Positions 13,992-59,824 of a stretch of 64,000 nt of DNA are shown in pieces. Source of the DNA: a phage; the NCBI GenBank assembly GCA_037431425.1, contig GCA_037431425.1_4129.1; one strand, 5' to 3'. A model generated the notes under the pieces. It was not told the DNA's origin. It saw only the letters and a list, made by a program, of their open reading frames with translations, and did not search any database. The position numbers and the translations under genes are program-made. The stretch's first letter is position 1. Every line of letters begins with the position of its first letter.

Positions 13992-13994
13992 TAG

Positions 13995-14023: not shown

Positions 14024-14049
14024 ATTATTATTGAAAACGCACTCTTTTT
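14006..14049 (+). terminator. hairpin terminator with large loop
   Basis: GTGCGTTTTC...GAAAACGCAC stem followed by TCTTTTT. Confidence 0.5.
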
Positions 14050-14073
14050 AATATACAGATAAGGAACCAATAC

Positions 14074-14763: not shown

Positions 14764-14766
14764 TAC

Positions 14767-16412: not shown

Positions 16413-16421
16413 TCTAAATCT

Positions 16422-16447
16422 GGGAGTACAAAATGTACTCCCATTTT
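16422..16447 (+). terminator. intrinsic terminator
   Basis: GGGAGTACA-aaa-TGTACTCCC followed by ATTTT. Confidence 0.7.
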
Positions 16448-16461
16448 CTATAGGGTTTATT

Positions 16462-17034
16462 ATGTTTTTAAAAAATACTTATGAATTAATTAAAATGCTT
16501 CAAAATATGAATTCTGGTGGTCTATTTCCTTATCATTCCGAGGATAAAACACATCGTTTAGTTTTGAAATTGGATGAAACTGGACGTATTGCATCACTAA
16601 GAACGGTTATTCCCAATATGGAGCAAGTAATCACACAATCAACTCCGAAGTCAGGCACTGCTGTTAATACACCACAAACATATAATCCACAGATATATAC
16701 TATTAGTTCTCCACCTATTACACGAGTTGCCTGTATTGTGAATATAAAAGTATCTAAGGACTATCGTGACTTAATATCAGTTGAATGGTCAGAAATAACA
16801 TCATCATTGGGAGCAAATGGGTTTGTAGTAACAAATACAGGTCTAGTACAAAATGTGAAAGAAGGACAGCAGATCATGAGTGCATTGTATATTAGTAATG
16901 GTTGTGTTATCATCAATGGCAAGTTGTATAGAGATACTGAACCTGATGCATTCACTGAAGATTTGGTTGGTGAAAAAGAATACAGCATTCTGGAAATTAT
17001 GAATTTGAAAAAGGTATATGAAAACGGTGTTTAG
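16462..17034 (+). CDS. hypothetical protein
   Basis: 190 aa ORF. Confidence 0.5.
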   Translation: MFLKNTYELIKMLQNMNSGGLFPYHSEDKTHRLVLKLDETGRIASLRTVIPNMEQVITQSTPKSGTAVNTPQTYNPQIYTISSPPITRVACIVNIKVSKDYRDLISVEWSEITSSLGANGFVVTNTGLVQNVKEGQQIMSALYISNGCVIINGKLYRDTEPDAFTEDLVGEKEYSILEIMNLKKVYENGV

Positions 17035-17599
17035 ATTTCATCAAGATGATTTACCATTTATCCAAGAGCTTGAGGAACTGGTAATAAGTACTATGGATGA
17101 AATTAGTACTTGGGATATAACCGTTTTTCGAAATGTATATGATAAAGTGGTGAATTTTAAAAATGTTAATATTGAAGTAAAGCATAATAATTTTTACTTA
17201 ACAAAACAATTCATTCTAACTCGTCCAGGACACAAACCTGTTAAGCGTAATTTGTCATTCGGACACATCATTGGTACTGAAAAGGTATATGATGAATGGG
17301 TTGATTCAATCTATTCGTATACAAAAGAACTTATTCCAGATATTGAGAAAAGATATTATCTAAGTATCACATTAGATGAAAACGGAAATCTTAATGCGTA
17401 TTCAATAAATTCTTCATCAAATGTTCCATTACATTCGGTGACGATTGGTGATAAAAAATTGCTAATAAATTCTGAAACATGGTATAATAGAGAAAATTTC
17501 GCAGCAGAAACATTTCAGTACTCTGTATCAGAACCAAAGACACCTTTTGACTTGGTTTTTGTTAACAATATTATTATACGTTATGGTGTAGGAGTGTAA
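17018..17599 (+). CDS. hypothetical protein
   Basis: 193 aa ORF. Confidence 0.5.
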   Translation: MKTVFRFHQDDLPFIQELEELVISTMDEISTWDITVFRNVYDKVVNFKNVNIEVKHNNFYLTKQFILTRPGHKPVKRNLSFGHIIGTEKVYDEWVDSIYSYTKELIPDIEKRYYLSITLDENGNLNAYSINSSSNVPLHSVTIGDKKLLINSETWYNRENFAAETFQYSVSEPKTPFDLVFVNNIIIRYGVGV

Positions 17600-17601
17600 T
17601 T

Positions 17602-17952
17602 ATGCTAATATATTTAAGTGTACTTGTTGTTTCGTTACTGTTATCACTGGTTATTTTAAAAATTATTGCTATTGTTCGAAGTAAGATTGATTGTTCTGAA
17701 ACTGGTTCAGTTATTGACTTGGTTCTTGATTATCCAAAGCGTTGTGGTGTTATTGTATTAATTGTTCTCCTTATGAATACATACATCGTCAGAGAACATT
17801 TATATAATATGTATGATTGTAGTGTTCGTTCATTTTCACAAGGTGTGGACACTGACTATAGTTGGTATTATAAGAAATGTCGATTTAAAAACCAACACGG
17901 TATTTGGGTTGATTTTGATAAATTACGTGGAACCCCTACTGGAGAAGAATAA
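17602..17952 (+). CDS. small membrane protein
   Basis: 116 aa; two hydrophobic helices. Confidence 0.5.
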   Translation: MLIYLSVLVVSLLLSLVILKIIAIVRSKIDCSETGSVIDLVLDYPKRCGVIVLIVLLMNTYIVREHLYNMYDCSVRSFSQGVDTDYSWYYKKCRFKNQHGIWVDFDKLRGTPTGEE

Positions 17953-43892: not shown

Positions 43893-44678
43893 ATGAACAA
43901 CATTTTCTTCAAAACTATTTCTTTCAAAAAAGAATCTTACTCATATTCCTATGTTGATGGTAATGTGCTTAATATTGTTCTGAATGGGGTAGATGTTCCT
44001 GTGAAATTCGACTCACATGAAGAAGCAGTCGATGGGGCAAAAGAATTGAATTCAATTCTCAATGGTGAAGATAGTCAAAAACAAAAGGTAAAATCCGATT
44101 TAGATGCACTTTTGGAAAAAATCAAAAGTGGTGAAGTTCTTGAAATTTTAGAAAACTGTAATGAAAAACTACGTAAAGTAGTCAATGATGTTCATGACCA
44201 GATTCAAGAAAAAGCACTAGACCAAGCCTTTAAACATGTATCTAAAAAAGCTGAATCACGTATTGATAATATGGTCAAAAACATTGATGATGTACTTTCA
44301 CATCTCTTTACCAAAGAATACGAATGTAACACAGACGAGCCAGTTACTGAATCTAAAAAAGAAAAACGCAACTTTGGTTCAAGTGATGATGTATTTGGTT
44401 TTTCTAATGTACGAACAAGTGCAGATGAACCAAAGGAAATCAGTGAGATGCTCATTGGTGACATGACAACAAAACAACTTCGTAATGAAATTGACAAGTT
44501 TGTTACTACATCTATCAAATCTGAACGTGCACAAAATATGTTCAAAAGTATCAGTGCTAATTTTGGTACTGAAGCCACCGAACAAGCACTAAATGCATTT
44601 AAAGAATTGATTTATAATGTTGCCATTCGCAATCCAGAAAAAACACTCGAAGAAGTCCTACGAGAAAATTTCAAATAA
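43893..44678 (+). CDS. hypothetical coiled-coil protein
   Basis: 261 aa; RBS AAGGAG. Confidence 0.6.
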   Translation: MNNIFFKTISFKKESYSYSYVDGNVLNIVLNGVDVPVKFDSHEEAVDGAKELNSILNGEDSQKQKVKSDLDALLEKIKSGEVLEILENCNEKLRKVVNDVHDQIQEKALDQAFKHVSKKAESRIDNMVKNIDDVLSHLFTKEYECNTDEPVTESKKEKRNFGSSDDVFGFSNVRTSADEPKEISEMLIGDMTTKQLRNEIDKFVTTSIKSERAQNMFKSISANFGTEATEQALNAFKELIYNVAIRNPEKTLEEVLRENFK

Positions 44679-44720: not shown

Positions 44721-45875
44721 TTATGCGTTATAACCAACAATAACGACAGTACAATCAATTGGATTTACTACTTTAACAGTTACGTTATCATCTTCATCAA
44801 ACTGTATTTCGCTATGAACTACCTGTTTGGTTGAAGAATACAATTGAACTTGTGGTAATACTTTACCATGTTCAGTAACTGGAATAGATAGTGAATACAT
44901 AGAGTCTTCATCTTCTACCCAATCACTCTCCACATATTCCTTATGGAATGGGGTGGTGTGTAGTGTTTTGCCCATAATACGCAAAGACACAGGCGAATTA
45001 TCGCTTTGGTTCACTGTAATATCACCTTTATCATCAACAGACATATCAACACCTATTTGGTGTAAATCATCGCTATATGCTTGGAGAACTAATTTATTAC
45101 CACGTTTATGAACATCATATGGTACGACCGCAGAAAAAACTCCATCACCTGATGGTTGGAATTGCGTCAATTGAACCGGAGTAACATAATCAACATCCTC
45201 GCCGTGTTCTTGAACATCAAATTCAACAACTTTAGTGTTATAATATGGGGAAGTTAATGTGGCAGTACCTTTGCCTTTTTGTTGAATAGCATCTACTTGA
45301 ATCGTAAACTCATCATCAACAATTTGTTTAGTGACGTATTCTTTCCCTTCTGGTAATACAAATTTAATTTCCATGCCATTGGTATCAATTTCAGAACCAG
45401 CATTGAATAGTTTACCACTAATTGATTTATCACCAACAAATACTGGTGAAATAATAATATTATCAATATCCCTATCAATAATACTACATTCTGGGGTATA
45501 CATATTATAAAGAGATTTTGAATTTCCTAAAATAGTTTTGTGTAGTAGGAATTTATAAACAAATCCAGTATCTGCCTCTTGCTGCTCATTAGTGTGTCCA
45601 CGAACAAAGAAACTGTTTCTATTAATTTCACTTAATAGTTCATCATTAGATTTACTATAATTTAGCAGATAACCTTTATTATCTTTAGTTGTTAGTTGGA
45701 CTTTACGGTAAATTATATTAGTTCTTGGGTCAACCAAATCATATAATTTGTGACTTCTCTGACGATAGATTCTAATATTTTTAAGTTTAGTTCCGTCATT
45801 AAGTATCGCTCCATCAACGACATAACCACATTCGCCAAACTTGTATCTACCTGCTGACGCTATAGACCTTGACAT
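44721..45875 (-). CDS. hypothetical protein (only confident minus-strand gene)
   Basis: 384 aa ORF; protein-like composition; flanked by terminator and AT-rich divergent promoter region. Confidence 0.65.
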   Translation of the reverse strand: MSRSIASAGRYKFGECGYVVDGAILNDGTKLKNIRIYRQRSHKLYDLVDPRTNIIYRKVQLTTKDNKGYLLNYSKSNDELLSEINRNSFFVRGHTNEQQEADTGFVYKFLLHKTILGNSKSLYNMYTPECSIIDRDIDNIIISPVFVGDKSISGKLFNAGSEIDTNGMEIKFVLPEGKEYVTKQIVDDEFTIQVDAIQQKGKGTATLTSPYYNTKVVEFDVQEHGEDVDYVTPVQLTQFQPSGDGVFSAVVPYDVHKRGNKLVLQAYSDDLHQIGVDMSVDDKGDITVNQSDNSPVSLRIMGKTLHTTPFHKEYVESDWVEDEDSMYSLSIPVTEHGKVLPQVQLYSSTKQVVHSEIQFDEDDNVTVKVVNPIDCTVVIVGYNA

Positions 45876-46804: not shown

Positions 46805-47260
46805 ATGTTTAAAAATTTTATTGTTATTGTAGCAGTACTGTTTGGTGCATCATGTTTTATTACACCAGTACATGCAGAAGAACAACGTCAAACTATTAAA
46901 ACTATTGGTACTGGTAAAACACCACCTAAACGTACTGCGGAAGAATACATGCCGGAAATCCGTGAGCGTTATCGCCAGACATACAGGGAAAAACATGCAA
47001 ATGACAAACCAATCAAAAAGCACAAATGGGAAGTAGTTAAATCCCCTTCATTTTGTGCTGGTTATGCGAAGGTAAAGGTTGAACAACACAACAACCAGTA
47101 CTATAAGGATATGTATTACTTCTATGACTCCAGAATTTCTGACACTGATTTGATGGCAGGGAAGGTTGATAAAGAAGAATTTCTTCAAGGTTATGATATG
47201 ATGGACGATGCTAAGATCATGGAGTGTGTAGATGTGTATGAAAAATATAGAGGGTTCTAA
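46805..47260 (+). CDS. secreted protein (signal peptide)
   Basis: 151 aa; hydrophobic N-terminus with VHA-EE cleavage-like site. Confidence 0.55.
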   Translation: MFKNFIVIVAVLFGASCFITPVHAEEQRQTIKTIGTGKTPPKRTAEEYMPEIRERYRQTYREKHANDKPIKKHKWEVVKSPSFCAGYAKVKVEQHNNQYYKDMYYFYDSRISDTDLMAGKVDKEEFLQGYDMMDDAKIMECVDVYEKYRGF

Positions 47261-47721
47261 TGATACTACTAGTATTATTATCAAGCCCGTTTGCTTATTT
47301 TATTCTGTATAATATTTTTAGTAATGCTCATCATTTTAAATACGCACAAACAATTGCAAAACATGAAGGATGGTGGCATTTTTTTCCAGCACTACTGTGT
47401 TCATATATGTTCAATGAACGCTATTTTATTTTTCCAGAATATACAAAGTACTATTATGATACTAAAATAAATGGCATAATTGAGTACTGTCTACGTAATT
47501 ATCTGAACAATACAGATAATGTTAAAGTGAATTTATTAAATGGAAATTCACCAAGAATAGTCTTTACATCTTACATAGAAGACCCCATTTACTTATATCT
47601 ATATGATTATAGTATTTCGGTTCGTTGTTCTATGCGTAGTAGTTGTGAGTACTTTATCTTACTACCTACACAAATAAGATTAATAGAAAAATACTTGAAA
47701 TTGATTGACAAAAAAGATTAG
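47260..47721 (+). CDS. membrane-anchored hypothetical protein
   Basis: 153 aa; N-terminal hydrophobic segment. Confidence 0.5.
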   Translation: MILLVLLSSPFAYFILYNIFSNAHHFKYAQTIAKHEGWWHFFPALLCSYMFNERYFIFPEYTKYYYDTKINGIIEYCLRNYLNNTDNVKVNLLNGNSPRIVFTSYIEDPIYLYLYDYSISVRCSMRSSCEYFILLPTQIRLIEKYLKLIDKKD

Positions 47722-47765
47722 TAGGGTTATAATCATAAGACTAACCGACAAAAGAGGAACTGAAA

Positions 47766-48224
47766 ATGGACGTATTGGCTACCAATTTCAAACGTAACAC
47801 AGAAGAGCGTGAAGGATACCTTAGTATTAGCGATGTAGTTGATGATAACTTCAAACAATACATTTTTAATAGTGCGATTAAGTTAAAATGCACAAAGGAT
47901 GCACCAGACCGTAGTTTTACTAAATGGATTGCATATTGGGAAGATTCACCAATTGCAATTGAAATGACAGTTATTACAACAGTTCTGGAAACGGGATATA
48001 TCAAAGCTATTGTAGTTGATAAGAAAGTCAGATCTCTTGATGAAATTAACCCATATCCAGCCCGAAATTCTAAAGTTTTTGGGTTTTTGGTTGAAGGTAA
48101 GTTTATGATTGAAAAAGATGCAAAAGAATATGTAATTAATATGCTACAAACACCAACCGAGAAAAAAAAGGTCGTTGACCAGAATGCTATTGATTCCATC
48201 AAGAAAGCATGGGGACTTAAGTAA
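47766..48224 (+). CDS. hypothetical protein
   Basis: 152 aa; RBS AAGAGGAA; preferred over low-complexity antisense ORF 47741-48202. Confidence 0.6.
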   Translation: MDVLATNFKRNTEEREGYLSISDVVDDNFKQYIFNSAIKLKCTKDAPDRSFTKWIAYWEDSPIAIEMTVITTVLETGYIKAIVVDKKVRSLDEINPYPARNSKVFGFLVEGKFMIEKDAKEYVINMLQTPTEKKKVVDQNAIDSIKKAWGLK

Positions 48225-48225
48225 C

Positions 48226-48648
48226 ATGTTCACACTAAGTAATACAAAATATCTTTTTCTTATTAGTATTATTGGTTGGGTTATGGCTCCAGTGCTTAAT
48301 GCACTGGGGATTCCAGAGGAACACAAACTTGTCAATATTTCAGGTTTAATCCAAGCTATTTCGTGGTATTCATTAATCATATTTTTTGTGTGTATTAACA
48401 CATTTGCACGCGAGTATCGACGCTTACTTTATTTTAAAGTTTTCGGAACCACATACTATAGTTTTCTTTATACATTTATTTTAGTTCCATGTGTAGTATA
48501 TGCCTTTGTTTTTGATTACTATACATATATGTGGGTGTGTAGTACAATGTTTGTTATGTTAGAATATACAAGAACTATTCAAAACTCATATGCAGAAGAG
48601 TTTCATGATCAAGAAGTCAAACGCAAATTAACGGAGCTAAACAAATGA
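48226..48648 (+). CDS. integral membrane protein
   Basis: multiple TM helices; ATG 48226 right after upstream stop (track start 48175). Confidence 0.55.
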   Translation: MFTLSNTKYLFLISIIGWVMAPVLNALGIPEEHKLVNISGLIQAISWYSLIIFFVCINTFAREYRRLLYFKVFGTTYYSFLYTFILVPCVVYAFVFDYYTYMWVCSTMFVMLEYTRTIQNSYAEEFHDQEVKRKLTELNK

Positions 48649-49070
48649 GAGTATATAATAAAATTTGTATTTTTGTATTTTTAGTTTGTGCGTTCAATTC
48701 CTTTGGCTACTACTGCAACGAAAACAATATTTCATATGGATTAAATCCTTTGTGGTTTTCAATTTCAAATGTAGCTCAAACTGGTATTGCTATTATGTCT
48801 GCCCTTATGTTCTTTCCAATAGTTACGATGGATACTGATTATGAAAGGCTTGGATTTATCCGTGATACTGGTGACGAACCTTACAGTAGATTGATTGTGT
48901 TGTATCCATTTATTGTTATATTAGGTACTAATATCCAACTTGGGTCTTTATCTAATAGTCTTACTTCAGCAGTCATTACCATCTTTGCATTCATATTTTT
49001 TATGGTACACAAATCAGTACTTAAATGGCACATCACTCAATTGGCAGAGAAGGGTACAGAAATCAGTTGA
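48645..49070 (+). CDS. integral membrane protein
   Basis: 141 aa, about 4 TM helices. Confidence 0.55.
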   Translation: MRVYNKICIFVFLVCAFNSFGYYCNENNISYGLNPLWFSISNVAQTGIAIMSALMFFPIVTMDTDYERLGFIRDTGDEPYSRLIVLYPFIVILGTNIQLGSLSNSLTSAVITIFAFIFFMVHKSVLKWHITQLAEKGTEIS

Positions 49071-50664: not shown

Positions 50665-51630
50665 GTGAAAAAACTTGATTTGAATACAATTGCAGATGAA
50701 GTTCTGGATGAATGCTTTGGTAATGAAGAAGTGAATACGCTGGATGCGTTAGAACCAGTTCAAGAAAAAGATAACATTGACGAGAAAAATAATGGTAATT
50801 TCAAGTTTAATATTAGTCTTAAGCGACCAGCAAATGTAACAAATGAAGATATTATTCGTGATATTCAAGCAGGTATTAACGTAAAGAAAAATACTGAACT
50901 ATTAGTTCGTTATAATTACGGTTTGATTATTGATGTTGCAAGTAAATGCACGTGTTATATTCCATTTGAAGATAAGATTTCATATGGCATTGAGGGATTC
51001 ATGCGAGCATTAAAAACATTTGACCTTAGTAAGAATGTAAAGTTCGCTACGTATGCATCGTCAAGTATCTATATGACTGTATACAATGAAAGCTCAGATG
51101 CTAATCATCTGGTCCACTTCCCTCGTTACATGAGTGTTAATAAGATACAAGTGAAACGCTTCTGTCATAATTATGAGCGTCAGCATGGTTGTCGTCCTAC
51201 ACCTGAAATTATTTCTGAAGAGACTGGTATTGAAATCCAGCACGTTAAGAATTGTTTATTATTCCAAAGTGAATATACTTCACTGGATGCACCATTGGAT
51301 GGTGTTTCTGATGGGACGATGAGTGATATTCTGCATTCATCTGAAGGTGATTATAATCTTAATGTTGACAGTATTCGTGCACCGTTGCGTTATACCATCA
51401 ACGAACTAACTAATGAGTTGAGTGCTAAGGAATGTGAGATTATTCAACGTGTTCATGGATTAGGTGAATTTAATCCTGAAACACTACGTGAAATTGCTGA
51501 TAGTGGTTTTATTGATGACAATGGTAAGTGTGTAAAATCCAGATCTTCGGTTCATCGTAAATACAGTGATGCTCTTAAGAAACTCAAGAAATTAGTGCTC
51601 GCTAAAGGGTACGAATACGAAGATTTCTAA
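50665..51630 (+). CDS. RNA polymerase sigma factor, sigma-70 family (regions 2 and 4)
   Basis: 321 aa; GTG start after AGGAGAAG RBS; region 2-like FMRALKTFD...KFATYASSSI and region 4 HTH-like LREIADSGF...SRSSVHRKYSDALKKLKKL. Confidence 0.6.
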   Translation: MKKLDLNTIADEVLDECFGNEEVNTLDALEPVQEKDNIDEKNNGNFKFNISLKRPANVTNEDIIRDIQAGINVKKNTELLVRYNYGLIIDVASKCTCYIPFEDKISYGIEGFMRALKTFDLSKNVKFATYASSSIYMTVYNESSDANHLVHFPRYMSVNKIQVKRFCHNYERQHGCRPTPEIISEETGIEIQHVKNCLLFQSEYTSLDAPLDGVSDGTMSDILHSSEGDYNLNVDSIRAPLRYTINELTNELSAKECEIIQRVHGLGEFNPETLREIADSGFIDDNGKCVKSRSSVHRKYSDALKKLKKLVLAKGYEYEDF

Positions 51631-52749: not shown

Positions 52750-53538
52750 ATGTGCACTATAGATGAACTGATTCGACGGAATTCAAAATATTACAAACCA
52801 TCAGAAATTGTAGATAACATTACTAAATCAGAGTTCGGACCAAATACACGAAAACTAATTCATGTAATGTTACGTGATGGCTTTAAATGTGATTGTTGTG
52901 GTGAATCCAATGTGGTATTCACTTTACATAAGCACAGTACTAAAGAACGTTATAAATTCAGACCTTATGTACTTAAAGGGAAACGCCTTGTACGCATGAC
53001 GTTAGACCATAATGTACTGGACTGTCTTCAGGGCGGTAATGATAAAGAAAACATGACTGCACTGTGTGAGGATTGCAATGCATTACGCCAGCATAAATTT
53101 GCTGAGTACAGCGAGTTTAAGTTCTGGTATCATAATGCAGATCGTTCTATTGAACCTGACGTTAACTACTGCTTTATCGAGTACATTAAGAATGCAAAAG
53201 ATACATACATTCTTAAATCTATGGAACCAATTACCGTGTTTCCAATGAACCTATACACTACATTAAAGAATAGTTTTATGGTAGGTGATATTGATGCATT
53301 CAAGTATTTTGACAAAGGTGCAAAACATTTTGAAGTTCAATGTCTTAGTACTGCACTATGTGAACTTATTAAAATTTACATAAAAGATTATTTGGGTATT
53401 GACAATGTACGCGTACCAGAGTATACTTTTTCTATTGATTTCGATTGTGAATCAATCAAAGAGTTTGGGATTCTTTTCAATAAACAAATAGAACTTGCAA
53501 TTCAAAACGAAATCAAGTACTATAATACTAACATTTAA
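52750..53538 (+). CDS. HNH endonuclease (putative free-standing homing endonuclease)
   Basis: 262 aa; Cys pairs CDCCG / CEDCN flanking LDHNVLDCLQGGN (H-N-H core). Confidence 0.7.
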   Translation: MCTIDELIRRNSKYYKPSEIVDNITKSEFGPNTRKLIHVMLRDGFKCDCCGESNVVFTLHKHSTKERYKFRPYVLKGKRLVRMTLDHNVLDCLQGGNDKENMTALCEDCNALRQHKFAEYSEFKFWYHNADRSIEPDVNYCFIEYIKNAKDTYILKSMEPITVFPMNLYTTLKNSFMVGDIDAFKYFDKGAKHFEVQCLSTALCELIKIYIKDYLGIDNVRVPEYTFSIDFDCESIKEFGILFNKQIELAIQNEIKYYNTNI

Positions 53539-54042: not shown

Positions 54043-54070
54043 TTGACATAAGATATCAGTACTGTATAAT
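54043..54070 (+). promoter_or_regulatory. sigma70-type promoter (TTGACA-16-TATAAT)
   Basis: TTGACATAAGATATCAGTACTGTATAAT; spacer contains CAGTACTG. Confidence 0.7.
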
Positions 54071-54163: not shown

Positions 54164-54472
54164 ATGTTTCAAACTAACACTCAAGGTTTTGTAATCATTG
54201 ATTTGAATCAAAACAGCGGTAATTGGATGAAACCTACTGACGCATGTATGCAGTTTGATTTCTTAGGTTACAGAATTAGTGTAAGCACTGGTGCTTCTGT
54301 ACTGAGGGGTGGTTGTATTGTTGAACATCTGGTAACTGATCCAGAAGGTCGTGAGTATGAAATCGCAGGTTCAGTACAAGATGCCATTATGTTTGTATGT
54401 CAGCGTGAAATGAATGGTTCGAATTCAAATGCACTGACTCATGCTCTTTCTCAAGAAGTGGAGATTCGTTAA
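54164..54472 (+). CDS. hypothetical protein
   Basis: 102 aa; RBS GAGGAA. Confidence 0.55.
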   Translation: MFQTNTQGFVIIDLNQNSGNWMKPTDACMQFDFLGYRISVSTGASVLRGGCIVEHLVTDPEGREYEIAGSVQDAIMFVCQREMNGSNSNALTHALSQEVEIR

Positions 54473-54723
54473 TGAAATACATTGTAGCAGTACTCGTCGC
54501 ATTTTTACTCACTGCATGTGATGCTTCAACCAAAGAACGCACAAGTGATTTTATTCTCCCGACTGAATTAAAAGAAGCCGGATGTAAGATTTATCGTATG
54601 CAAAAGGACGGTGCTGATGTAACCTTGTATACAGTTTATTGCCCTAATGCAAATACCAGTACTGGATACACTAGCGGTAAAACACGAGTCAATACTTCAG
54701 TGATTAATGGAGTACAACAATGA
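54472..54723 (+). CDS. small lipoprotein
   Basis: 83 aa; signal peptide with lipobox LLTAC. Confidence 0.55.
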   Translation: MKYIVAVLVAFLLTACDASTKERTSDFILPTELKEAGCKIYRMQKDGADVTLYTVYCPNANTSTGYTSGKTRVNTSVINGVQQ

Positions 54724-55088
54724 GCCTTGATACAACCCGTGCAACAGATTTATTAACTCGTCTGAATGATGAAGAATATCTTGCTGAAATAAAGTACAAG
54801 CTTGACAAACTGGTTCGAAGTGCTGAAGTAATTGAAGTTGAAGGTCACTTACCAATGGATCAATTCCATACGTTCAACGAAGAGATGGTTTATTATCCTA
54901 ATGAAATTTGGATTGAGTGGCAACATTGGACTGGTAAAACACTACGTATTGAAGGGTATTGTGTGAAGTATGAACGTGATCCTGGTTATGTGACAAAAAC
55001 TTTGTCAATTTGGTGTACAAAAACACATGAACTCGTTGAGGTGAATTTGAATTATATGAATGGCTTCCGTTGGGGTGATGTTAAATGA
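54720..55088 (+). CDS. hypothetical protein
   Basis: 122 aa. Confidence 0.55.
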   Translation: MSLDTTRATDLLTRLNDEEYLAEIKYKLDKLVRSAEVIEVEGHLPMDQFHTFNEEMVYYPNEIWIEWQHWTGKTLRIEGYCVKYERDPGYVTKTLSIWCTKTHELVEVNLNYMNGFRWGDVK

Positions 55089-55360
55089 TTAAAAAACTCT
55101 TGACGGTGTTCTTTGTATTCAGTACAATGTTTCTTACAGCATGTAACGATGACGGCAGGTTAAGTGCAAAAGACTTAGCTCGATTAGATTGTGCATACAC
55201 AGGTAAGTCTTTTATTAACGAGTATGAGGTATGCACACAATCAGGTCGTATCTGTGGTGGTTGGGAGAAACGTCAGGAGCGATTGTATGTATATGAATGT
55301 CCTGGACAACTCAACAAAGTACTAAGCACACAAAAACTTGTTTATGATAAGGTTGAATAA
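55085..55360 (+). CDS. small lipoprotein
   Basis: 91 aa; signal peptide with lipobox FLTAC. Confidence 0.55.
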   Translation: MIKKLLTVFFVFSTMFLTACNDDGRLSAKDLARLDCAYTGKSFINEYEVCTQSGRICGGWEKRQERLYVYECPGQLNKVLSTQKLVYDKVE

Positions 55361-55575
55361 TGACTACTAATGAAATGATGCAGGTTATTTGGGATAAAGG
55401 TTGTGATATTAAAATCACTAGTACTGATGTTCGTGTATTCAAAACTGAATACCTGGAGTACTTGGACCTTGATACTTATAATAATATTGTATCAATTGAA
55501 CATAAAGGTGCAGTACTTGAAACTATTGATGTGGTTCTGAAGAAAGCAACAGACCTATTAGGTGCGTCAGTGTGA
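55360..55575 (+). CDS. hypothetical protein
   Basis: 71 aa. Confidence 0.5.
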   Translation: MTTNEMMQVIWDKGCDIKITSTDVRVFKTEYLEYLDLDTYNNIVSIEHKGAVLETIDVVLKKATDLLGASV

Positions 55576-55718
55576 ATAATAAAGAGTGGGAAGAATACCG
55601 AAAAAAATGCCGAGAGTTTGATAAAGAACTAACTGGTACTATTAATGCAGTAATGGGTGTATCTGTTTTTATTGCAGTTGTGTCATTATTTGCTGTTATT
55701 ATTAATAAATTTTTATAG
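55572..55718 (+). CDS. small membrane protein (48 aa, GTG start)
   Basis: not in track; C-terminal TM; alternative start codon, weak. Confidence 0.3.
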   Translation: MNNKEWEEYRKKCREFDKELTGTINAVMGVSVFIAVVSLFAVIINKFL

Positions 55719-55726
55719 GAACTCCC

Positions 55727-55924
55727 ATGTTTACTTTATATCTCGCAGTGGTTCTTACTAATGGTGAAATCACTCGTACTATTGGTGAAGGTGTATATAA
55801 AACGCCTGAGCAATGTTACTCTGCTACACATTGGCCTCGTGATAGTGATGATACTCGTACCGAATTTAAATGCATGAAAGTAAAAGGTGATTTTGTTAAC
55901 CTTAAAGTTATTGAGGATAAATGA
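55727..55924 (+). CDS. hypothetical protein
   Basis: 65 aa. Confidence 0.5.
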   Translation: MFTLYLAVVLTNGEITRTIGEGVYKTPEQCYSATHWPRDSDDTRTEFKCMKVKGDFVNLKVIEDK

Positions 55925-56439
55925 TGAATATTAATGAGTTGTTAATATTATTGTTTAATCGTGGAAATGATGTAAGACGTACTATCTATCAAGACAAAAT
56001 ACACATTGAAACTGATAAATGTTATGGTAAAACAACTCATGAGATTTTAAAACCGAACGGTAAACGATATGCCGACGTATGTTTTCATGAAAGAAGTGAT
56101 GGTAGTGACATAATCAGTACTGATATTGTGTTTTATGCTAGATCATCGGCAGAATCGTATGAAATCGAACTTGTATATTGCCCTAGTTCAAAAGCACACA
56201 ATAAGCGTCAGATATTGTATGATGTTTATTCACCACCAGGTGTAGCTGAACATTTTGTTATCGATTACAGTACTGAAGAAAGTGTGTTTCAACAGAGTTT
56301 GATTCATAACTTCCAGTTGAACGATCCAAATGTACCAAAGATGTTCAAACTACTCGATGTAATTGATGTTGATTTTGAATTTGTTATGTGCATCAGAACT
56401 TCTTTAATCGATGAATTTATGGAATTACTTAATATATGA
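55921..56439 (+). CDS. CtFQ-family small protein
   Basis: 172 aa; motif EESVFQQSLIHNF. Confidence 0.6.
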   Translation: MMNINELLILLFNRGNDVRRTIYQDKIHIETDKCYGKTTHEILKPNGKRYADVCFHERSDGSDIISTDIVFYARSSAESYEIELVYCPSSKAHNKRQILYDVYSPPGVAEHFVIDYSTEESVFQQSLIHNFQLNDPNVPKMFKLLDVIDVDFEFVMCIRTSLIDEFMELLNI

Positions 56440-56657
56440 ATCGTTACTACATTGTTTATGAGCATGTATCTGAGTTTAATAATATACGTGGATATAAGAA
56501 AGAAGTTCAGAAGATTGATGTATTTGTACATGCTTTTAATCCTACTCATGCACTAATGAAACTGTTTGATGAAGTAACTAAGTACAACACACCAAAAACA
56601 CAACGCTATGTTGGAACTGTACATAGTGTAATGCTTACTGAATATGATGGAGAATGA
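56436..56657 (+). CDS. hypothetical protein
   Basis: 73 aa. Confidence 0.5.
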   Translation: MNRYYIVYEHVSEFNNIRGYKKEVQKIDVFVHAFNPTHALMKLFDEVTKYNTPKTQRYVGTVHSVMLTEYDGE

Positions 56658-56660
56658 CAA

Positions 56661-56879
56661 ATGAATTTATATCTTGTTGAAGGGTCAGTGCAAGTGTGCA
56701 CCGTAGATGGTGAAGGTTATCGCTTTTCACATGTAGAAGATTTTAAGTACGTTGTACATGCGGAAGGTCAGTATGACGCAGAAATTCAGGTTAAAGAATC
56801 ATTCCGTAATAAGAATGCCATTGGAAAATTCAAATACCAGAACTTACAATTCATTGTATGGCCCAGCATTAATGACTAA
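56661..56879 (+). CDS. hypothetical protein
   Basis: 72 aa. Confidence 0.5.
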   Translation: MNLYLVEGSVQVCTVDGEGYRFSHVEDFKYVVHAEGQYDAEIQVKESFRNKNAIGKFKYQNLQFIVWPSIND

Positions 56880-57087
56880 GATGTGGTGGTGTCATGGTGT
56901 CTACAATGTCTATGAATATGGTAGATTCAAAATGAGCAGTACATATGCCAGACGTGTAAATGCGAAAAACCAAGTTGATGCTGCTTGTGAGATTGTAGAG
57001 TGGTATGCAGAGTTCAATGCAATTGAATATATGTACGAAATAGTCACAATAAATGTTGTACAAATTGACACTTCTTTGATACAATAA
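56872..57087 (+). CDS. hypothetical protein
   Basis: 71 aa from ATG 56872 overlapping upstream stop; track ORF 56752 over-extended. Confidence 0.45.
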   Translation: MTKMWWCHGVYNVYEYGRFKMSSTYARRVNAKNQVDAACEIVEWYAEFNAIEYMYEIVTINVVQIDTSLIQ

Positions 57088-57118
57088 CTTTATCAAAACA
57101 ACTTCATCTGAGGATTTT

Positions 57119-57781
57119 ATGTTAGTAAATCTCAACTTTATCACTTCTCCTGATTGGGCATTGCGTGGTGTTTCTTTGAACTTTAAAGAAACTCATTTTG
57201 AACACATTGGTGATTGTACTTTAGTTAATGCTACATTTGATCCACATCATCCTTTTTGGGCTAAAATTCACGATCCAAATGTAAACAATAGTACATCAGT
57301 CATGACTATTGTTCAAACGAAACATCCTGGTATTCTTGCAGGCTACCGTCCTGAACATGCAATTGAACACTTCACTGATTACGATGTGGTTGATGAATAT
57401 CCAATGATCCATAAAGATGGAAGTTTATACACATCTGAAGACGTTCGTGCTATCTTTAATAGTACTGATGATATTCTACCAAGTGGACGAGCACGTCCTA
57501 AGTCTTATCTTATGCATTCATCTTATGGTGTAGCAGACACACTTGAGCAGATTATGAAGAAGTTCAAGAACCTAATTGAAGGTCCAGAAGAAATTGTTTT
57601 ATGCTATCATCCAGTACTGAAATCTGACCAACCAGAGAGTGGTGGGTGGCGTTGGCATAAGAATGGTGAGTACATCGGAACTAAGCGTAGTAAAGAACGC
57701 TTTGAGTACTTGTATGATGAGCCAGATGTTGATGTTGTTTTGTGTTATAATTTTCTTAAGGTGAAAAAGAAATGTATCTAG
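57119..57781 (+). CDS. hypothetical protein
   Basis: 220 aa; RBS GAGGA. Confidence 0.6.
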   Translation: MLVNLNFITSPDWALRGVSLNFKETHFEHIGDCTLVNATFDPHHPFWAKIHDPNVNNSTSVMTIVQTKHPGILAGYRPEHAIEHFTDYDVVDEYPMIHKDGSLYTSEDVRAIFNSTDDILPSGRARPKSYLMHSSYGVADTLEQIMKKFKNLIEGPEEIVLCYHPVLKSDQPESGGWRWHKNGEYIGTKRSKERFEYLYDEPDVDVVLCYNFLKVKKKCI

Positions 57782-58014
57782 TATTGAATTTTGTAGTTGT
57801 GTTTTTGTTTATGTTATATCCTACACTTGTAGCATTAGCCACTAAACGAACATGGACACACATTATTACTGTTTTCTTTCTTAACGTTGTTCTTGTATTT
57901 GTGTCTATTATTATTCCAATAAGCTTTACATATACTGACATTGTATTTGTATTACTCTTTGTGTTCAGTTATCTTATGCTCATTGATGAAAATAATATTG
58001 ACAAACGTTCTTAG
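57772..58014 (+). CDS. small integral membrane protein
   Basis: 80 aa, 2-3 TM. Confidence 0.5.
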   Translation: MYLVLNFVVVFLFMLYPTLVALATKRTWTHIITVFFLNVVLVFVSIIIPISFTYTDIVFVLLFVFSYLMLIDENNIDKRS

Positions 58015-58068
58015 AACTGTATAATAGTTACTGTAGTTTAAAAACACTTTATTTTGAGGATATGAAAT

Positions 58069-58389
58069 ATGTTATCAGTATTGTTTTCGATTCCATCCCT
58101 AGTTCTGATTTGGCTTATTGTTTACGAATTCTTTATCACTGATGTTAATGATAAAAAAGAGTTTGTACAGTTGTTTCTGCTAGATTCACCGATTGTCCGA
58201 ATTTATTATACTATCGTTTGTGTTTCAGTACTTGTATGGATTGTGAGTTTTATTTTTCCATTGGGATCATTAGTATATACATTGAATTTTATGGAAAATG
58301 TAGTGGCTATTCTATGGCTAATTGCAGCATGGTATGCAGGTAATGTTAGTATTTGGATTGATATTTTAAAATCTAAATTCACAAAATAA
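58069..58389 (+). CDS. integral membrane protein
   Basis: 106 aa, about 3 TM; RBS GAGGA. Confidence 0.55.
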   Translation: MLSVLFSIPSLVLIWLIVYEFFITDVNDKKEFVQLFLLDSPIVRIYYTIVCVSVLVWIVSFIFPLGSLVYTLNFMENVVAILWLIAAWYAGNVSIWIDILKSKFTK

Positions 58390-58472
58390 TATTTAATAGT
58401 AAAAAAATACCCCTATGATATTAAATACTTGTATACTATATGTACAAATGTATTTTTCTATAGGGGTTTGTT

Positions 58473-58832
58473 ATGGGTAGATATATAAAATTAATAGCAT
58501 TTGCTTGCTTATTATTTTCATGTTTTAGTTATGGTTCGTCATCTGTAACACAATGTCGTAGTTCGAATGGAACTATATATTCATTGACAAACGATCCGAA
58601 TAATGGTAAAAACATTGTTATCAATGGTGTAACTTATCGTGTTAAAGCTCAGAGTACCATCGGTAATAAAAAGATAACGACTTATGTAAATGATTCTGGA
58701 ACAATTGCGAATGTTATATTAATCGTTAACCCAATAACAGGTAATGGTGATATCTATATTGTGATTTATTTGGATACAGCATTACAACGAGAACTAAATT
58801 TGGATGAATTAAATCTGCACTGCAAAATATAG
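58473..58832 (+). CDS. secreted protein (signal peptide)
   Basis: 119 aa; hydrophobic N-terminus. Confidence 0.55.
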   Translation: MGRYIKLIAFACLLFSCFSYGSSSVTQCRSSNGTIYSLTNDPNNGKNIVINGVTYRVKAQSTIGNKKITTYVNDSGTIANVILIVNPITGNGDIYIVIYLDTALQRELNLDELNLHCKI

Positions 58833-58842
58833 GATATAATAT

Positions 58843-59220
58843 ATGCTCAATTCTATTGTGATTTGGTTTTTAAGTATTCCAATTATTTTATCTTTTGTAA
58901 TTTCTATTTGTATGATTTTATATTTTATTTTTGCTGGGGTGTATTTTATTTTTACAAACAAAGATATTTTTATTTCTAAACTTGATTCTATATTTGCTTG
59001 TGAGTCGTTAGCTTATAATTTGTGGATAATTTGTTCTTGTATCATGGGTATGGCATTCCTACTACACGAATTTAATGTCATTGATGATAATGTTGTATAT
59101 ATTAGTACTGGGTTAGCATTATATCCAGCTACATGGTACTTGATTTATGTTGTCGATATATGGTATAGTACTTACAAAGAATACCAGTGTAAAAAGTCAT
59201 CAAAAGTTGAGAGGAAATGA
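58843..59220 (+). CDS. integral membrane protein
   Basis: 125 aa, about 4 TM. Confidence 0.55.
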   Translation: MLNSIVIWFLSIPIILSFVISICMILYFIFAGVYFIFTNKDIFISKLDSIFACESLAYNLWIICSCIMGMAFLLHEFNVIDDNVVYISTGLALYPATWYLIYVVDIWYSTYKEYQCKKSSKVERK

Positions 59221-59573
59221 TTATGAAAATTATCTTGTTTTTTGTATCTATGTTAGTTTGTGGTTTAGTGTCAGCAGAACCGTTGGAAGGTGTTGTTTGT
59301 ACAGATGGAAATACCAAACACACATATCAAGGTGATAGCTATGACCGCGATATCGTTTATATTGATGGTCAACAATACAGCTTTGTTAAAGAACATACCA
59401 TTGGTGACATTAGTTTTACTGAGTTCGCGAAAGATGAGAATCCGAAGGAATTGGCATTTATTGAAGTTGATTTGTATGAAGACAGTAATGGCTCTCAATA
59501 TGCTAAACTTGTATTGATGCGTCGTGGTGCAAAAGAAACAAGTTTTGGTGGTTTATGTAAATACAAGGACTAA
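59217..59573 (+). CDS. secreted protein (signal peptide)
   Basis: 118 aa; signal peptide ...GLVSA-EP. Confidence 0.55.
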   Translation: MIMKIILFFVSMLVCGLVSAEPLEGVVCTDGNTKHTYQGDSYDRDIVYIDGQQYSFVKEHTIGDISFTEFAKDENPKELAFIEVDLYEDSNGSQYAKLVLMRRGAKETSFGGLCKYKD

Positions 59574-59578
59574 ATTTT

Positions 59579-59770
59579 ATGTTGATTTATCAATGTGACG
59601 GTATTCGTGTTCTACAACATCCTTATCTTCAAATCTTTCATGTTCAGATGTTTATGGAAGGTGATAATCCGAGAACTTATGAACGCACATATGATTATTT
59701 CACGGTCAAAGAGTGCGACAACATCGATGAAGTACGACGATTAGTACATGAACTCCAAAACAAAGGTTGA
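59579..59770 (+). CDS. hypothetical protein
   Basis: 63 aa; stop codon inside terminator stem. Confidence 0.5.
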   Translation: MLIYQCDGIRVLQHPYLQIFHVQMFMEGDNPRTYERTYDYFTVKECDNIDEVRRLVHELQNKG

Positions 59771-59790
59771 CTTCGGTCAGCCTTTTTTGT
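59762..59790 (+). terminator. intrinsic terminator with UUCG tetraloop (copy 1 of 3)
   Basis: AAAGGTTGAC-TTCG-GTCAGCCTTTTTTGTT. Confidence 0.85.
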
Positions 59791-59824
59791 TATAATTATT
59801 TTATATTCTAATGGAGTTTAAATT

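What the first reader, a model, noticed from the sequence alone, without database searches (positions are those of the whole stretch)
54472..59573. Dense cluster of small lipoproteins, secreted and multi-TM proteins
Two small lipoproteins with near-identical lipoboxes (LLTAC at 54472, FLTAC at 55085), signal-peptide proteins (58473, 59217) and several multi-TM proteins (57772, 58069, 58843) occur within 5 kb. Candidates for superinfection exclusion, spanin-like or membrane-targeting functions; none has a recognisable enzymatic motif.
Basis: seen in the sequence. Interest (0 to 1): 0.35.

Follow-up and report, generated by a model that had tools for sequence, protein, structure and literature searches.

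The report
Early envelope-protein genes of a jumbo coliphage
A giant E. coli phage carries a run of small genes, probably switched on early in infection, that send lipoproteins, membrane proteins and two related secreted barrel proteins to the cell envelope; they most likely protect the infected cell from further phage attack, but their function is untested and the pattern is common in large phages.

Summary
The window comes from an Asteriusvirus (121Q/PBECO4-like) jumbo coliphage.

The 5-kb "cluster" is really two units, each behind a perfect sigma-70 consensus promoter, so probably early genes. The upstream unit holds two unrelated, solitary lipoproteins. One belongs to a broad phage family (phrog_902, 572 phage records). 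The downstream unit (58069-59770, terminator at 59762) alternates a 3-TM protein with a secreted eight-stranded beta-barrel, twice. The two barrels are ancient paralogs, each apparently closed by a disulfide. This gene neighbourhood is largely kept, at 25-46% identity, in Klebsiella RaK2-like phages and in metagenomic relatives.

The spanin reading is rejected, because the 121Q spanin pair lies about 150 kb away. Cor and T5-Llp labels rest only on signal-peptide similarity. No enzymatic, defence or structural homolog was found.

The best guess is superinfection exclusion or envelope protection, analogous but not homologous to T4 Imm/Sp (about 40%). Density alone is not statistically compelling; operon structure and synteny are. 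Interest is modest.

The parts
54043..54070 (+). Perfect sigma-70 consensus promoter (TTGACA-16-TATAAT) heading unit A
   Evidence: It is one of 12 perfect matches in the window, all on the + strand, against 0.19 expected by chance. It lies in the 218-nt gap before the 54164 gene.
54164..54472 (+). First gene of unit A: 102-aa soluble protein, very highly conserved (97-99% even to the most divergent relative, A4), function unknown (phrog_26720)
54472..54723 (+). Lipoprotein 1 (83 aa). Lipobox LLTAC, mature protein starts CDAS. Asp at +2 implies inner-membrane retention (inferred). Two further conserved Cys. Member of the broad phage family phrog_902.
   Evidence: Relatives occur in 572 phage records (Felixounavirus, Vequintavirinae, Vibrio phages including N4-like Schitoviridae), always as a solitary gene in arrays of small genes.
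55085..55360 (+). Lipoprotein 2 (91 aa). Lipobox (F/I)LTAC, mature protein starts CNDD, with four further conserved Cys. phrog_31263, restricted to Asteriusvirus and a few other jumbo phages (Munch, PHA46, EJP2).
55572..55718 (+). 48-aa tail-anchored protein (charged N-terminal half, C-terminal TM), GTG start; phrog_38271
57119..57781 (+). 220-aa soluble protein of unknown function. Its end overlaps the start of the 57772 gene by 10 nt. It travels with the module in all distant relatives.
   Evidence: 46% identity to KP13-7, 45% to L016, 35% to L015
57772..58014 (+). 80-aa membrane protein with 3 TM segments (N-out/C-in by the positive-inside rule), last gene of unit A
57998..58025 (+). Perfect sigma-70 consensus promoter heading unit B. 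Its -35 box overlaps the last codons of the 57772 gene.
   Evidence: Both hexamers are invariant in ph0011, UE-S1, CRJP21 and EC.P1, and A4 has an equivalent promoter just upstream of its ortholog.
58069..58389 (+). 106-aa membrane protein, 3 TM segments, basic C-tail (KSKFTK); phrog_31401
   Evidence: Present in KP13-7 and L016, absent from L015.
58473..58832 (+). Secreted beta-barrel A (119 aa). Sec signal peptide. Conserved Cys near the mature N-terminus and 2 residues from the C-terminus.
   Evidence: The lipobox-like LLFSC is not conserved.
58843..59220 (+). 125-aa membrane protein, 3-4 TM segments, strongly basic C-tail. The fastest-diverging gene of the region; phrog_31707.
59217..59573 (+). 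Secreted beta-barrel B (118 aa; the likely start is 59223, MKIILFF...VSA|EP). Its start overlaps the stop of the previous gene (ATGA). Paralog of barrel A.
   Evidence: Paralogy: (hhalign probability 95.7%, E=1e-8). AF2 model: pLDDT 79, pTM 0.71, eight strands. Fold searches.
59579..59770 (+). 63-aa soluble protein, last gene of unit B (phrog_6957)
59762..59785 (+). Intrinsic terminator (10-bp stem, T-run) closing unit B, immediately followed by the next promoter-like site (59767-59796)
   Evidence: A terminator is annotated at the same place in phage UE-S1.

Best explanation
The interval holds two probably early-expressed transcription units of an Asteriusvirus jumbo phage. Their products are sent to the host cell envelope soon after infection.

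Unit A (promoter at 54043; genes 54164-58014) contains two unrelated, solitary small lipoproteins, a 48-aa tail-anchored protein, several soluble proteins, and a 3-TM protein at its end. Lipoprotein 1 is probably retained on the periplasmic face of the inner membrane through Asp at +2. Lipoprotein 2 probably goes to the outer membrane by default.

Unit B (promoter at 57998, terminator at 59762) encodes, in order: a 3-TM inner-membrane protein, a Sec-secreted eight-stranded beta-barrel, a second unrelated 3-4-TM protein, a paralogous beta-barrel, and a 63-aa soluble protein. Each barrel appears to be closed by a disulfide between its first and last strands.

My preferred mechanism is inferred, not shown. 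These proteins remodel or guard the envelope of the already infected cell. They would give superinfection exclusion or immunity against incoming phages by blocking a receptor, a tail-tip enzyme or DNA passage across the periplasm and inner membrane. T4 does this with Imm (small membrane protein) plus Sp (periplasmic protein), and T5 does it with Llp, but these proteins are not homologous to any of those.

The anatomy is well supported (about 0.9): real genes, envelope targeting, two units, paralogous barrels, conserved neighbourhood. Early timing is inferred from promoters (about 0.75). The exclusion function is a guess at about 0.4.
For: Identity of the source: 97% identity to phage ph0011, 84% to 121Q/PBECO4.

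Envelope targeting: lipoboxes, signal peptides and TM segments are present, conserved in six relatives and kept in all distant barrel homologs.

Coding reality: dN/dS is 0.05-0.4 for every gene, apart from one saturated deep comparison of the 58843 gene with A4 at 0.64.

Early expression (inferred):
- There are 12 perfect TTGACA-N16-18-TATAAT sites, all on the + strand, against 0.19 expected. Two of them sit in the gaps heading the two units.
- The unit B promoter is conserved.
- The region follows the phage sigma-factor gene.
- The same arrangement was interpreted as the early, host-takeover region in the related phage CBB (PMC5259590).

Not virion components: none of phAPEC6 gp043c-gp060c is in the mass-spectrometry virion proteome (PMC7247149).

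Unit B as a module:
- The 59217 start overlaps the 58843 stop.
- The barrels are paralogs (hhalign 95.7%).
- The order 220-aa protein / small TM protein / (Zn finger) / 3-TM protein / barrel / TM protein / barrel is kept at 25-46% identity in Klebsiella Alcyoneusvirus KP13-7 and in metagenomic contig L016. It is mostly kept in the most distant contig, L015.

Consistent with a conflict-type function: unit B is the most divergent stretch of the region (44-71% identity to EC.P1, against 79-99% for most neighbours). The barrel family is tiny and lineage-restricted, with 11 small representatives among 1.84 billion proteins.

Barrel model: pLDDT 79, eight-strand meander, invariant Cys8 and Cys94 of the mature protein.
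Against: - There is no homology to any characterised exclusion protein. The PHROG Cor hit (E=1.5e-3) covers only the signal peptide and lipobox and disappears with mature domains. There is no Llp, Imm or Sp family hit and no PDB sequence hit.
- Foldseek gives only generic small up-and-down barrels: Tp0751, avidins and lipocalins, with E>=0.04 and TM about 0.55.
- The high divergence of unit B comes with high dS and omega of 0.1-0.4. That indicates old or mosaic alleles under purifying selection, not demonstrated positive selection.
- By predicted topology the 3-TM proteins expose very little to the periplasm, so a direct barrel-membrane protein complex is not obvious.
- The two TM families are not detectably related, so a duplicated 'pair' is not shown. 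The 58069-type gene is missing in the most distant relative.
- Early timing is inferred from promoter sequence only. No transcriptome exists for this genus.
- Density of envelope genes is not significant after scan correction, and the window has other such runs.
Confidence: 0.4

Rival explanations
1. No joint function. The interval is an ordinary stretch of a jumbo phage's accessory-gene array, in which about one gene in five encodes a membrane or secreted protein. The lipoproteins, the tail-anchored protein and unit B each do unrelated things. Examples would be masking receptors so progeny are not lost on debris, countering an envelope-associated host defence, or tuning envelope stress or transport. 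Their proximity has no meaning.
For: - After scan correction the density is not significant (P=0.19).
- 29 of 129 called genes in the window have a hydrophobic segment, and other runs exist at 46.8-49.1 kb and 14.8-18 kb.
- Lipoprotein 1 moves as a solitary gene, with no conserved partner, in four unrelated phage groups.
- The two lipoproteins are unrelated.
- Units A and B have separate promoters and very different divergence.
Against: Within unit B the co-occurrence is not accidental. The barrels are paralogs, and the same neighbourhood is kept across genera at 25-46% identity. The run of five consecutive envelope genes is marginally non-random (P=0.042). This rival also overlaps the best explanation, because receptor masking is itself a form of exclusion.
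Confidence: 0.3
2. Lysis-timing machinery. The three small 3-TM proteins with charged C-tails are holin- or antiholin-like, and the periplasmic barrels sense or modulate them, as T4 RI does for the T holin in lysis inhibition.
For: - The predicted N-out/C-in 3-TM topology with a basic cytoplasmic tail is the class I holin architecture (sequences; topology inferred by the positive-inside rule).
- No holin of this genus has been verified experimentally, as far as the papers read here show.
- T4 lysis genes are also scattered (own knowledge).
Against: - Perfect host-type promoters in an early-looking region, whereas holins are late genes.
- The endolysin is hundreds of genes away (UE-S1 ORF 534 against UES1_155-171), and the spanins are about 150 kb away.
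- The fEgEco12 authors annotate a holin, while the orthologs of these genes in that record are left as hypothetical.
- No PHROG holin or antiholin hit.
Confidence: 0.1
3. The lipoproteins are spanin components (o-spanins or unimolecular spanins) acting in outer-membrane disruption at lysis.
For: They are small lipoproteins of 83-91 aa, the usual o-spanin size.
Against: - No adjacent, overlapping or embedded gene encodes an N-terminally anchored i-spanin. The neighbours (54164, 54720, 55360) have no TM segment.
- Neither lipoprotein has a C-terminal TM, so neither is a u-spanin.
- Asp at +2 in lipoprotein 1 predicts inner-membrane retention, whereas an o-spanin must reach the outer membrane (own knowledge).
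- A curated census already assigns 121Q and PBECO4 a separated i-/o-spanin pair (PBI_121Q_511/512, 245,337-246,017) far from this region (PMC6139136 supplement).
- The promoter context looks early.
Confidence: 0.02
4. The secreted proteins are virion structural proteins, as annotated for the 59217 ortholog (gp_527) in phage CRJP21.
For: The 'structural protein' label on CRJP21 gp_527 and gp_529.
Against: - No product of phAPEC6 gp043c-gp060c was detected among 62 virion proteins by mass spectrometry.
- A cleavable Sec signal peptide and a conserved disulfide pair point to the periplasm, not to cytoplasmic virion assembly.
- All other records call the ortholog hypothetical.
Confidence: 0.03

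Closest known systems
T4 Imm (small inner-membrane protein) plus Sp/Spackle (periplasmic protein): superinfection immunity of T-even phages
   Same: Early genes of a large virulent myovirus. A small polytopic inner-membrane protein combined with a roughly 100-aa signal-peptide protein acting in the periplasm. No enzymatic motifs.
   Different: No sequence relationship: no Imm or Sp PHROG hit. Spackle is helical (own knowledge), while the proteins here are predicted eight-stranded beta-barrels. Here the genes are adjacent, in one operon, and the secreted component is duplicated. Function is untested.
T5 Llp ('lytic conversion lipoprotein') and Cor of T1/phi80/N15: outer-membrane lipoproteins that block FhuA
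   Same: Small phage lipoproteins of about 75-90 aa with conserved Cys. Orthologs of both lipoproteins carry the Llp name in the fEgEco12 record, and lipoprotein 1 gives a weak Cor PHROG hit.
   Different: Similarity is confined to the signal peptide and lipobox. With mature domains only, hhalign probability against T1 Cor is 0.3%. No match to any PDB chain, Llp included, at E<=10. Lipoprotein 1 has Asp at +2 (predicting the inner membrane), whereas T1 Cor has Ser. The genes are not next to receptor-binding or tail-fibre genes, as cor is in T1.
Small periplasmic or lipoprotein eight-stranded beta-barrels (calycin-like: Tp0751, avidins, lipocalins, staphostatin; by architecture also MliC/PliC lysozyme inhibitors)
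   Same: Size (about 95 aa mature), all-beta eight-strand up-and-down meander, periplasmic location, stabilising disulfide.
   Different: Only weak structural scores (best E=0.04, TM 0.45-0.56). No Pfam MliC hit, and MliC/PliC are not among the top 50 Foldseek hits. No ligand or target is known.
Rz/Rz1 two-component spanins
   Same: Involve a small lipoprotein.
   Different: No i-spanin partner, the wrong predicted sorting for lipoprotein 1, an early rather than late context, and the genus has its own spanin pair elsewhere.

Membership tests
Two-component spanin (Rz/Rz1 type) | o-spanin lipoprotein gene embedded in, overlapping or adjacent to an i-spanin gene (N-terminal TM plus periplasmic coiled-coil domain) | tested here: not met
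   The neighbours of both lipoprotein genes (54164, 54720, 55360) have no hydrophobic segment.
Two-component spanin (Rz/Rz1 type) | The spanin role is not already filled elsewhere in the genome, and the gene is part of late/lysis expression | tested here: not met
   121Q/PBECO4 spanins are genes 511/512 at 245.3-246.0 kb. This region is at 92.6-98.9 kb in 121Q, behind sigma-70 consensus promoters.
Unimolecular spanin (T1 gp11 type) | N-terminal lipobox plus C-terminal TM segment in one protein | tested here: not met
   Neither lipoprotein has a second hydrophobic segment.
Cor superinfection-exclusion lipoprotein (phrog_1119) | Homology of the mature domain to Cor | tested here: not met
   The PHROG hit (E=1.5e-3) covers residues 1-50. 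hhalign of the family against T1 Cor aligns only residues 1-22 with full-length sequences, and gives probability 0.3% with mature domains.
Cor superinfection-exclusion lipoprotein (phrog_1119) | Outer-membrane sorting and a location beside tail-fibre or receptor-binding genes | tested here: not met
   Lipoprotein 1 has Asp at +2, while T1 Cor has Ser. Neighbours here are small hypothetical genes, whereas cor in T1 lies between tail genes. Actual sorting is not testable here.
T5 Llp (lytic conversion lipoprotein) | Sequence homology to Llp | tested here: not met
   No Llp-type PHROG at E<=0.01 for either lipoprotein. Profile (lipoprotein 1) and single-sequence (lipoprotein 2) searches of all PDB chains at E<=10 return only two or one unrelated chains. 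The fEgEco12 label is not discussed in its paper.
T5 Llp (lytic conversion lipoprotein) | Llp fold | tested here: inconclusive
   The lipoprotein 1 model is poor (pLDDT 58, pTM 0.40). Foldseek against the PDB gives nothing below E=1.5. Lipoprotein 2 was not modelled.
T4 Imm / Sp superinfection immunity | Sequence homology to Imm or Sp | tested here: not met
   PHROG and Pfam scans of all membrane and secreted proteins return only families of unknown function.
T4 Imm / Sp superinfection immunity | Exclusion phenotype on expression (block of DNA entry or of tail lysozyme) | not testable with these tools
   Needs plating, adsorption and DNA-entry assays.
Class I holin | Small protein with 3 TM segments, N-out/C-in, and a charged cytoplasmic C-tail | tested here: inconclusive
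   Hydropathy and the positive-inside rule fit for 57772, 58069 and 58843, but no dedicated topology predictor or experiment was available.
Class I holin | Late expression, linkage to endolysin or spanin genes, membrane-permeabilising activity | tested here: not met
   Early-type promoters. The endolysin and spanins are far away. Activity is not testable here.
MliC/PliC lysozyme inhibitors (PF09864) | Match to the family profile or to a solved member | tested here: not met
   No Pfam hit at E<=0.1. No PDB sequence hit. Not among the top 50 Foldseek matches.
Calycin-like eight-stranded beta-barrel fold | Structural superposition with significant score | tested here: inconclusive
   The model has pLDDT 79. 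The best matches are Tp0751, avidins and lipocalins at E 0.04-1 and TM 0.45-0.56.
phrog_902 (uncharacterised phage lipoprotein family) | Profile match plus the shared motif Cys-[D/N/E]...YxLPxE...C[KE][IV][YF]...[VI][YR]CP...GK | tested here: met
   E=3.2e-14. tblastn finds 572 phage records. An alignment with A7_1, CR9, NS7 and BUCT194 shows the motif.

The most novel reading that the evidence does not exclude
Unit B is a previously unrecognised two-layer superinfection-immunity system specific to RaK2/121Q-type jumbo phages. Each disulfide-closed periplasmic barrel would bind and neutralise a component of an incoming competitor's tail tip, such as a lysozyme or a membrane-piercing or channel protein. 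The cognate small membrane protein would block DNA passage at the inner membrane. The ancient duplication into two divergent barrels (and possibly two membrane partners) would provide two specificities, which would explain why this is the most divergent stretch of the region.
Probability: 0.2. Interest if true: 0.55.

Novelty: new variant of a known kind. Interest (0 to 1): 0.3.

Why it matters
Jumbo phages of the 121Q/RaK2 group are being developed for therapy, and more than 80% of their genes have no known function. If these early envelope proteins exclude other phages, they would affect how such phages behave in cocktails and in mixed infections. They would also add a non-homologous alternative to the T4 Imm/Sp and T5 Llp paradigms. 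The broadly distributed lipoprotein family (phrog_902), found in FelixO1-like, rV5-like and Vibrio phages, is an easy target for a single cloning and plating experiment. As it stands, this is a tidy description of hypothetical genes of a common type, not a surprise.

Tried and rejected
1. Spanin reading: rejected.
2. Cor membership of lipoprotein 1: rejected; the hit is only to the signal peptide.
3. The T5 Llp label from the fEgEco12 record: no support by PHROG or by PDB sequence search. The fold test was uninformative because the model was poor.
4. The precomputed Pfam PF16225 tag on lipoprotein 1 homologs could not be reproduced even at E<=10. The TrbK entry-exclusion hit (E=0.017) is below cut-off and signal-driven.
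5. The lipobox in the 58473 protein is not conserved, so it is not a lipoprotein.
6. Paralogy of the two lipoproteins, and of the three multi-TM proteins with each other: not detected, even after adding Klebsiella orthologs. One weak BLAST cross-hit (E=0.004) was not confirmed.
7. Positive selection on unit B: not shown, because dS is as elevated as dN.
8. 'Structural protein' annotation: contradicted by the phAPEC6 proteome.
9. Defence-system models (PADLOC): no hits.
10. Exhaustive profile search for distant barrel relatives: only 11 small proteins, plus spurious PKD/Ig adhesin and flagellin matches.
11. Literature searches for characterised jumbo-phage exclusion lipoproteins or transcriptomes of this genus: nothing relevant.

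Full report
SOURCE AND CONTEXT. The flagged 6 kb is 97% identical to Escherichia phage ph0011 and about 84% identical to 121Q, PBECO4, phAPEC6 and some 30 other records. All are Asteriusvirus jumbo myoviruses of about 350 kb. The whole window is a same-strand array of mostly small hypothetical genes. It runs from gyrase/topoisomerase and clamp-loader genes, through a tRNA island, to a phage sigma-factor gene at 50665-51630 and an HNH endonuclease gene at 52750-53538. No lysis genes are annotated nearby. Every gene in the flagged interval is 'hypothetical' in nearly all records.

THE OBSERVATION.
- Lipoprotein 1 (54472-54723, 83 aa) reads MKYIVAVLVAFLLTAC|DAS.
- Lipoprotein 2 (55085-55360, 91 aa) reads ...MFLTAC|NDD. 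Both match the PROSITE-type lipobox.
- The 58473 (119 aa) and 59217 (118 aa) products have signal peptides.
- 57772 (80 aa), 58069 (106 aa) and 58843 (125 aa) each have three, possibly four, hydrophobic segments.
- I add a 48-aa tail-anchored protein (55572-55718).

All of these genes have a plausible Shine-Dalgarno sequence. Alignment with six relatives shows both lipoboxes invariant, the cleavage regions conserved, and the TM segments retained. Pairwise dN/dS is 0.05-0.4 for every gene, apart from one saturated deep comparison of the 58843 gene with A4 at 0.64, so these are real coding sequences.

One correction: the 58473 protein also matches a lipobox (LLFSC), but that cysteine is missing in UE-S1, EC.P1 and A4. 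It is therefore an ordinary secreted protein.

IS THE DENSITY MORE THAN CHANCE? Using a crude gene call, 8 of 15 genes in the interval carry a hydrophobic 19-mer, against 21 of 114 elsewhere (Fisher p=0.0055). It gives P=0.19 for at least 8 such genes in any 15-gene window, and P=0.042 for a run of at least 5. The window also has other membrane-protein runs at 46.8-49.1 kb and 14.8-18 kb. Density alone is therefore weak evidence. What makes part of the interval a real unit is its operon structure and its conservation.

TRANSCRIPTION UNITS. The window contains 12 perfect TTGACA-N16-18-TATAAT sites, all on the + strand, against 0.19 expected. One (54043-54070) lies in the gap before the 54164 gene. 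Another (57998-58025) lies just before the 58069 gene. A strong hairpin-plus-T-run terminator sits at 59762-59785, right after the 59579 gene, and UE-S1 annotates a terminator at the same place. The 57998 promoter is conserved in four relatives, and A4 has an equivalent one. In the related phage CBB, RpoD-like promoters likewise concentrate in the array of short ORFs next to the sigma-factor gene, and the authors read that region as early, host-takeover genes (PMC5259590).

From this I infer two early units: unit A (54164-58014) and unit B (58069-59770). The inference is from promoter sequence, not from transcript data.

UNIT A, THE LIPOPROTEINS.

Lipoprotein 1 matches phrog_902 (E=3e-14) and, weakly, the Cor exclusion family (E=1.5e-3). 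tblastn finds relatives in 572 phage records: Felixounavirus, Vequintavirinae, Vibrio phages including N4-like Schitoviridae, and others. In four sampled groups the gene is a solitary member of arrays of small hypothetical genes. None of its window neighbours is conserved with it.

The family shares the motif Cys-[D/N/E]...YxLPxE...C[KE][IV][YF]...[VI][YR]CP...GK. The Cor link does not hold. hhalign against genuine T1 Cor aligns only residues 1-22 when the signal peptide is included, and gives probability 0.3% with mature domains.

Orthologs of both lipoproteins are labelled 'lytic conversion lipoprotein' (the T5 Llp name) in the fEgEco12 record. The paper never mentions this. No Llp-type PHROG hit exists, and searches of all PDB chains at E<=10 return nothing relevant.

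An AF2 model of mature lipoprotein 1 was poor (pLDDT 58), and its fold search was empty.

Asp at +2 is the classic Lol-avoidance signal in E. coli (established knowledge, from memory). I therefore infer that lipoprotein 1 stays on the periplasmic face of the inner membrane. Lipoprotein 2 (Asn at +2) probably goes to the outer membrane.

Lipoprotein 2 (phrog_31263) is restricted to Asteriusvirus and a few other jumbo phages. It is unrelated to lipoprotein 1.

UNIT B, A CONSERVED MODULE. The two secreted proteins are paralogs: BLASTP E=7e-4 and hhalign probability 95.7%, E=1e-8. Across both subfamilies, a Cys a few residues into the mature protein and a Cys 1-5 residues from the C-terminus are invariant.

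AF2 on a 19-sequence alignment gives pLDDT 79 and pTM 0.71, with eight strands in an up-and-down order. The two Cys lie in the first and last strands, which suggests a disulfide that closes a barrel (inference). Foldseek against the PDB finds nothing significant. The best matches are consistently small eight-stranded barrels: Tp0751, avidins, lipocalins and staphostatin, at E 0.04-1 and TM 0.45-0.56. The viral library returns only orthologs, paralogs and weak uncharacterised phage proteins.

The family is tiny. There are 17 clusters in the word-indexed search. In an exhaustive profile search of 1.84 billion representatives there are 11 small proteins, plus three spurious matches to giant PKD/Ig adhesins and a flagellin.

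The three multi-TM proteins are not detectably related to each other. By the positive-inside rule, each looks N-out/C-in with three TM segments.

The gene order is conserved well beyond the genus. Klebsiella Alcyoneusvirus KP13-7 has, at 25-46% identity: a 222-aa protein, a 3-TM protein, a DksA/TraR zinc-finger protein, a 3-TM protein, a barrel, a 3-4-TM protein and a barrel. Metagenomic contig L016 has the same order with one inserted gene. The most distant contig, L015, keeps the 219-aa protein, the small TM protein, the zinc finger, barrel A, an uncalled 58843-like ORF and barrel B. It lacks the 58069-type gene.

Unit B is also the most divergent part of the region: 44-71% identity to EC.P1, where most neighbours are 79-99%. 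dS is raised along with dN (omega 0.1-0.4). This looks like old or mosaic alleles under purifying selection, not demonstrated positive selection.

WHAT IT IS NOT.
- Not spanins. There is no i-spanin partner and no C-terminal TM. The promoters are early-type. A curated census places the 121Q/PBECO4 i-/o-spanin pair at 245.3-246.0 kb, about 150 kb away (PMC6139136 supplement).
- Not near the endolysin, which is UE-S1 ORF 534 against UES1_155-171 for this region.
- Not virion proteins. The 'structural protein' label in CRJP21 is contradicted by the phAPEC6 virion proteome, which has no entry between gp037c and gp077.
- Not matched by any defence-system model or any Pfam or NCBIfam family above threshold.

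MOST LIKELY FUNCTION. The evidence shows small, early-promoter-driven, non-virion, non-enzymatic proteins sent to the inner membrane, the periplasm and probably the outer membrane of the infected cell. One sub-module is conserved but fast-diverging.

The best-known job for such proteins in virulent phages is protecting the infected cell from secondary infection or from lysis from without (T4 Imm and Sp, T5 Llp). A related job is masking receptors so that progeny are not wasted on debris. I put that class of function at about 0.4.

The main rival (0.3) is that the genes have unrelated envelope roles and that only unit B is a unit. A holin/antiholin or lysis-inhibition role for the 3-TM proteins and barrels is possible on architecture but fits the promoter context and genome position poorly (0.1). 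Spanin and virion readings are effectively excluded.

NOVELTY AND INTEREST. None of the known families tested admits these proteins, so they would be non-homologous analogues rather than members. The barrel family and the membrane-protein/barrel arrangement are undescribed, as far as the searched literature shows. Arrays of small envelope proteins are routine in large phages, and nothing here is mechanistically surprising yet. I rate it a new variant of a known kind, with interest 0.3. The most novel reading still open is a two-layer, two-specificity immunity system particular to RaK2/121Q-type jumbo phages. I give that reading about 0.2 probability, and it would merit about 0.55 if true.

Noticed in passing
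window 11573, 13995, 30976, 31523, 35474, 35618, 39495, 40621, 45869, 47705, 54043, 57998 (all + strand): Twelve perfect sigma-70 consensus promoters (TTGACA-N16-18-TATAAT), against 0.19 expected by chance. They look like the heads of early operons across the whole window.
   Followed up: partly
window 44721-45875 (- strand) and 43893-44678 (+ strand): A lone minus-strand 384-aa gene sits in an otherwise all-plus array, and GC skew dips there. It matches 'virion structural protein' phrog_10468 at E=3e-162. The adjacent 261-aa gene matches phrog_14991, also a virion structural protein family. Their sizes fit phAPEC6 gp077 and gp078c, which were found in virions by mass spectrometry. The minus-strand gene seems absent from the equivalent place in ph0011. 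Two virion genes are thus embedded in an early-looking region.
   Followed up: partly
window 56872-57087 and 55085-55360: Local mosaicism. The 56872 gene is 99% identical to EC.P1 but only 83% to ph0011, which is otherwise the closest relative. Lipoprotein 2 is about 87% identical to every relative, ph0011 included, while its neighbours are 97-99% identical.
   Followed up: no
between window 58014 and 58069; L006 4916-5176, L014 2134-2394, L015 3731-3991, L016 1273-1533: A DksA/TraR-type C4 zinc-finger gene sits between the 57772-type and 58069-type genes in A4, Klebsiella phage KP13-7 and both metagenomic relatives. It is missing from this window and from ph0011, UE-S1, CRJP21 and EC.P1. This looks like a lineage-specific loss from an ancestral module.
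   Followed up: partly
between window 53946 and 54164: CRJP21, UE-S1, phAPEC6 and A4 carry an extra gene of about 93 aa here (annotated as a sigma-70 family protein in A4). It is absent from this window, ph0011 and EC.P1.
   Followed up: no
window 46805-49070: A second run of four envelope-type genes: a 151-aa signal-peptide protein, a 153-aa protein with an N-terminal TM, a 157-aa 3-TM protein (phrog_15839, 'membrane protein, host takeover') and a 141-aa 4-TM protein. None is related to the flagged module.
   Followed up: partly
window 12855-17952: A TelA-like protein (Pfam TelA, E=1e-38) is followed by several membrane proteins, including one annotated as LemA in ph0011. This is another envelope-associated block.
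   Followed up: no
L015 4315-4663: In the most distant metagenomic relative, the gene caller left a 350-nt gap. It contains an ORF resembling the 58843-type membrane protein (it ends ...CCWYIIWVIDYNW), probably with a non-ATG start.
   Followed up: no
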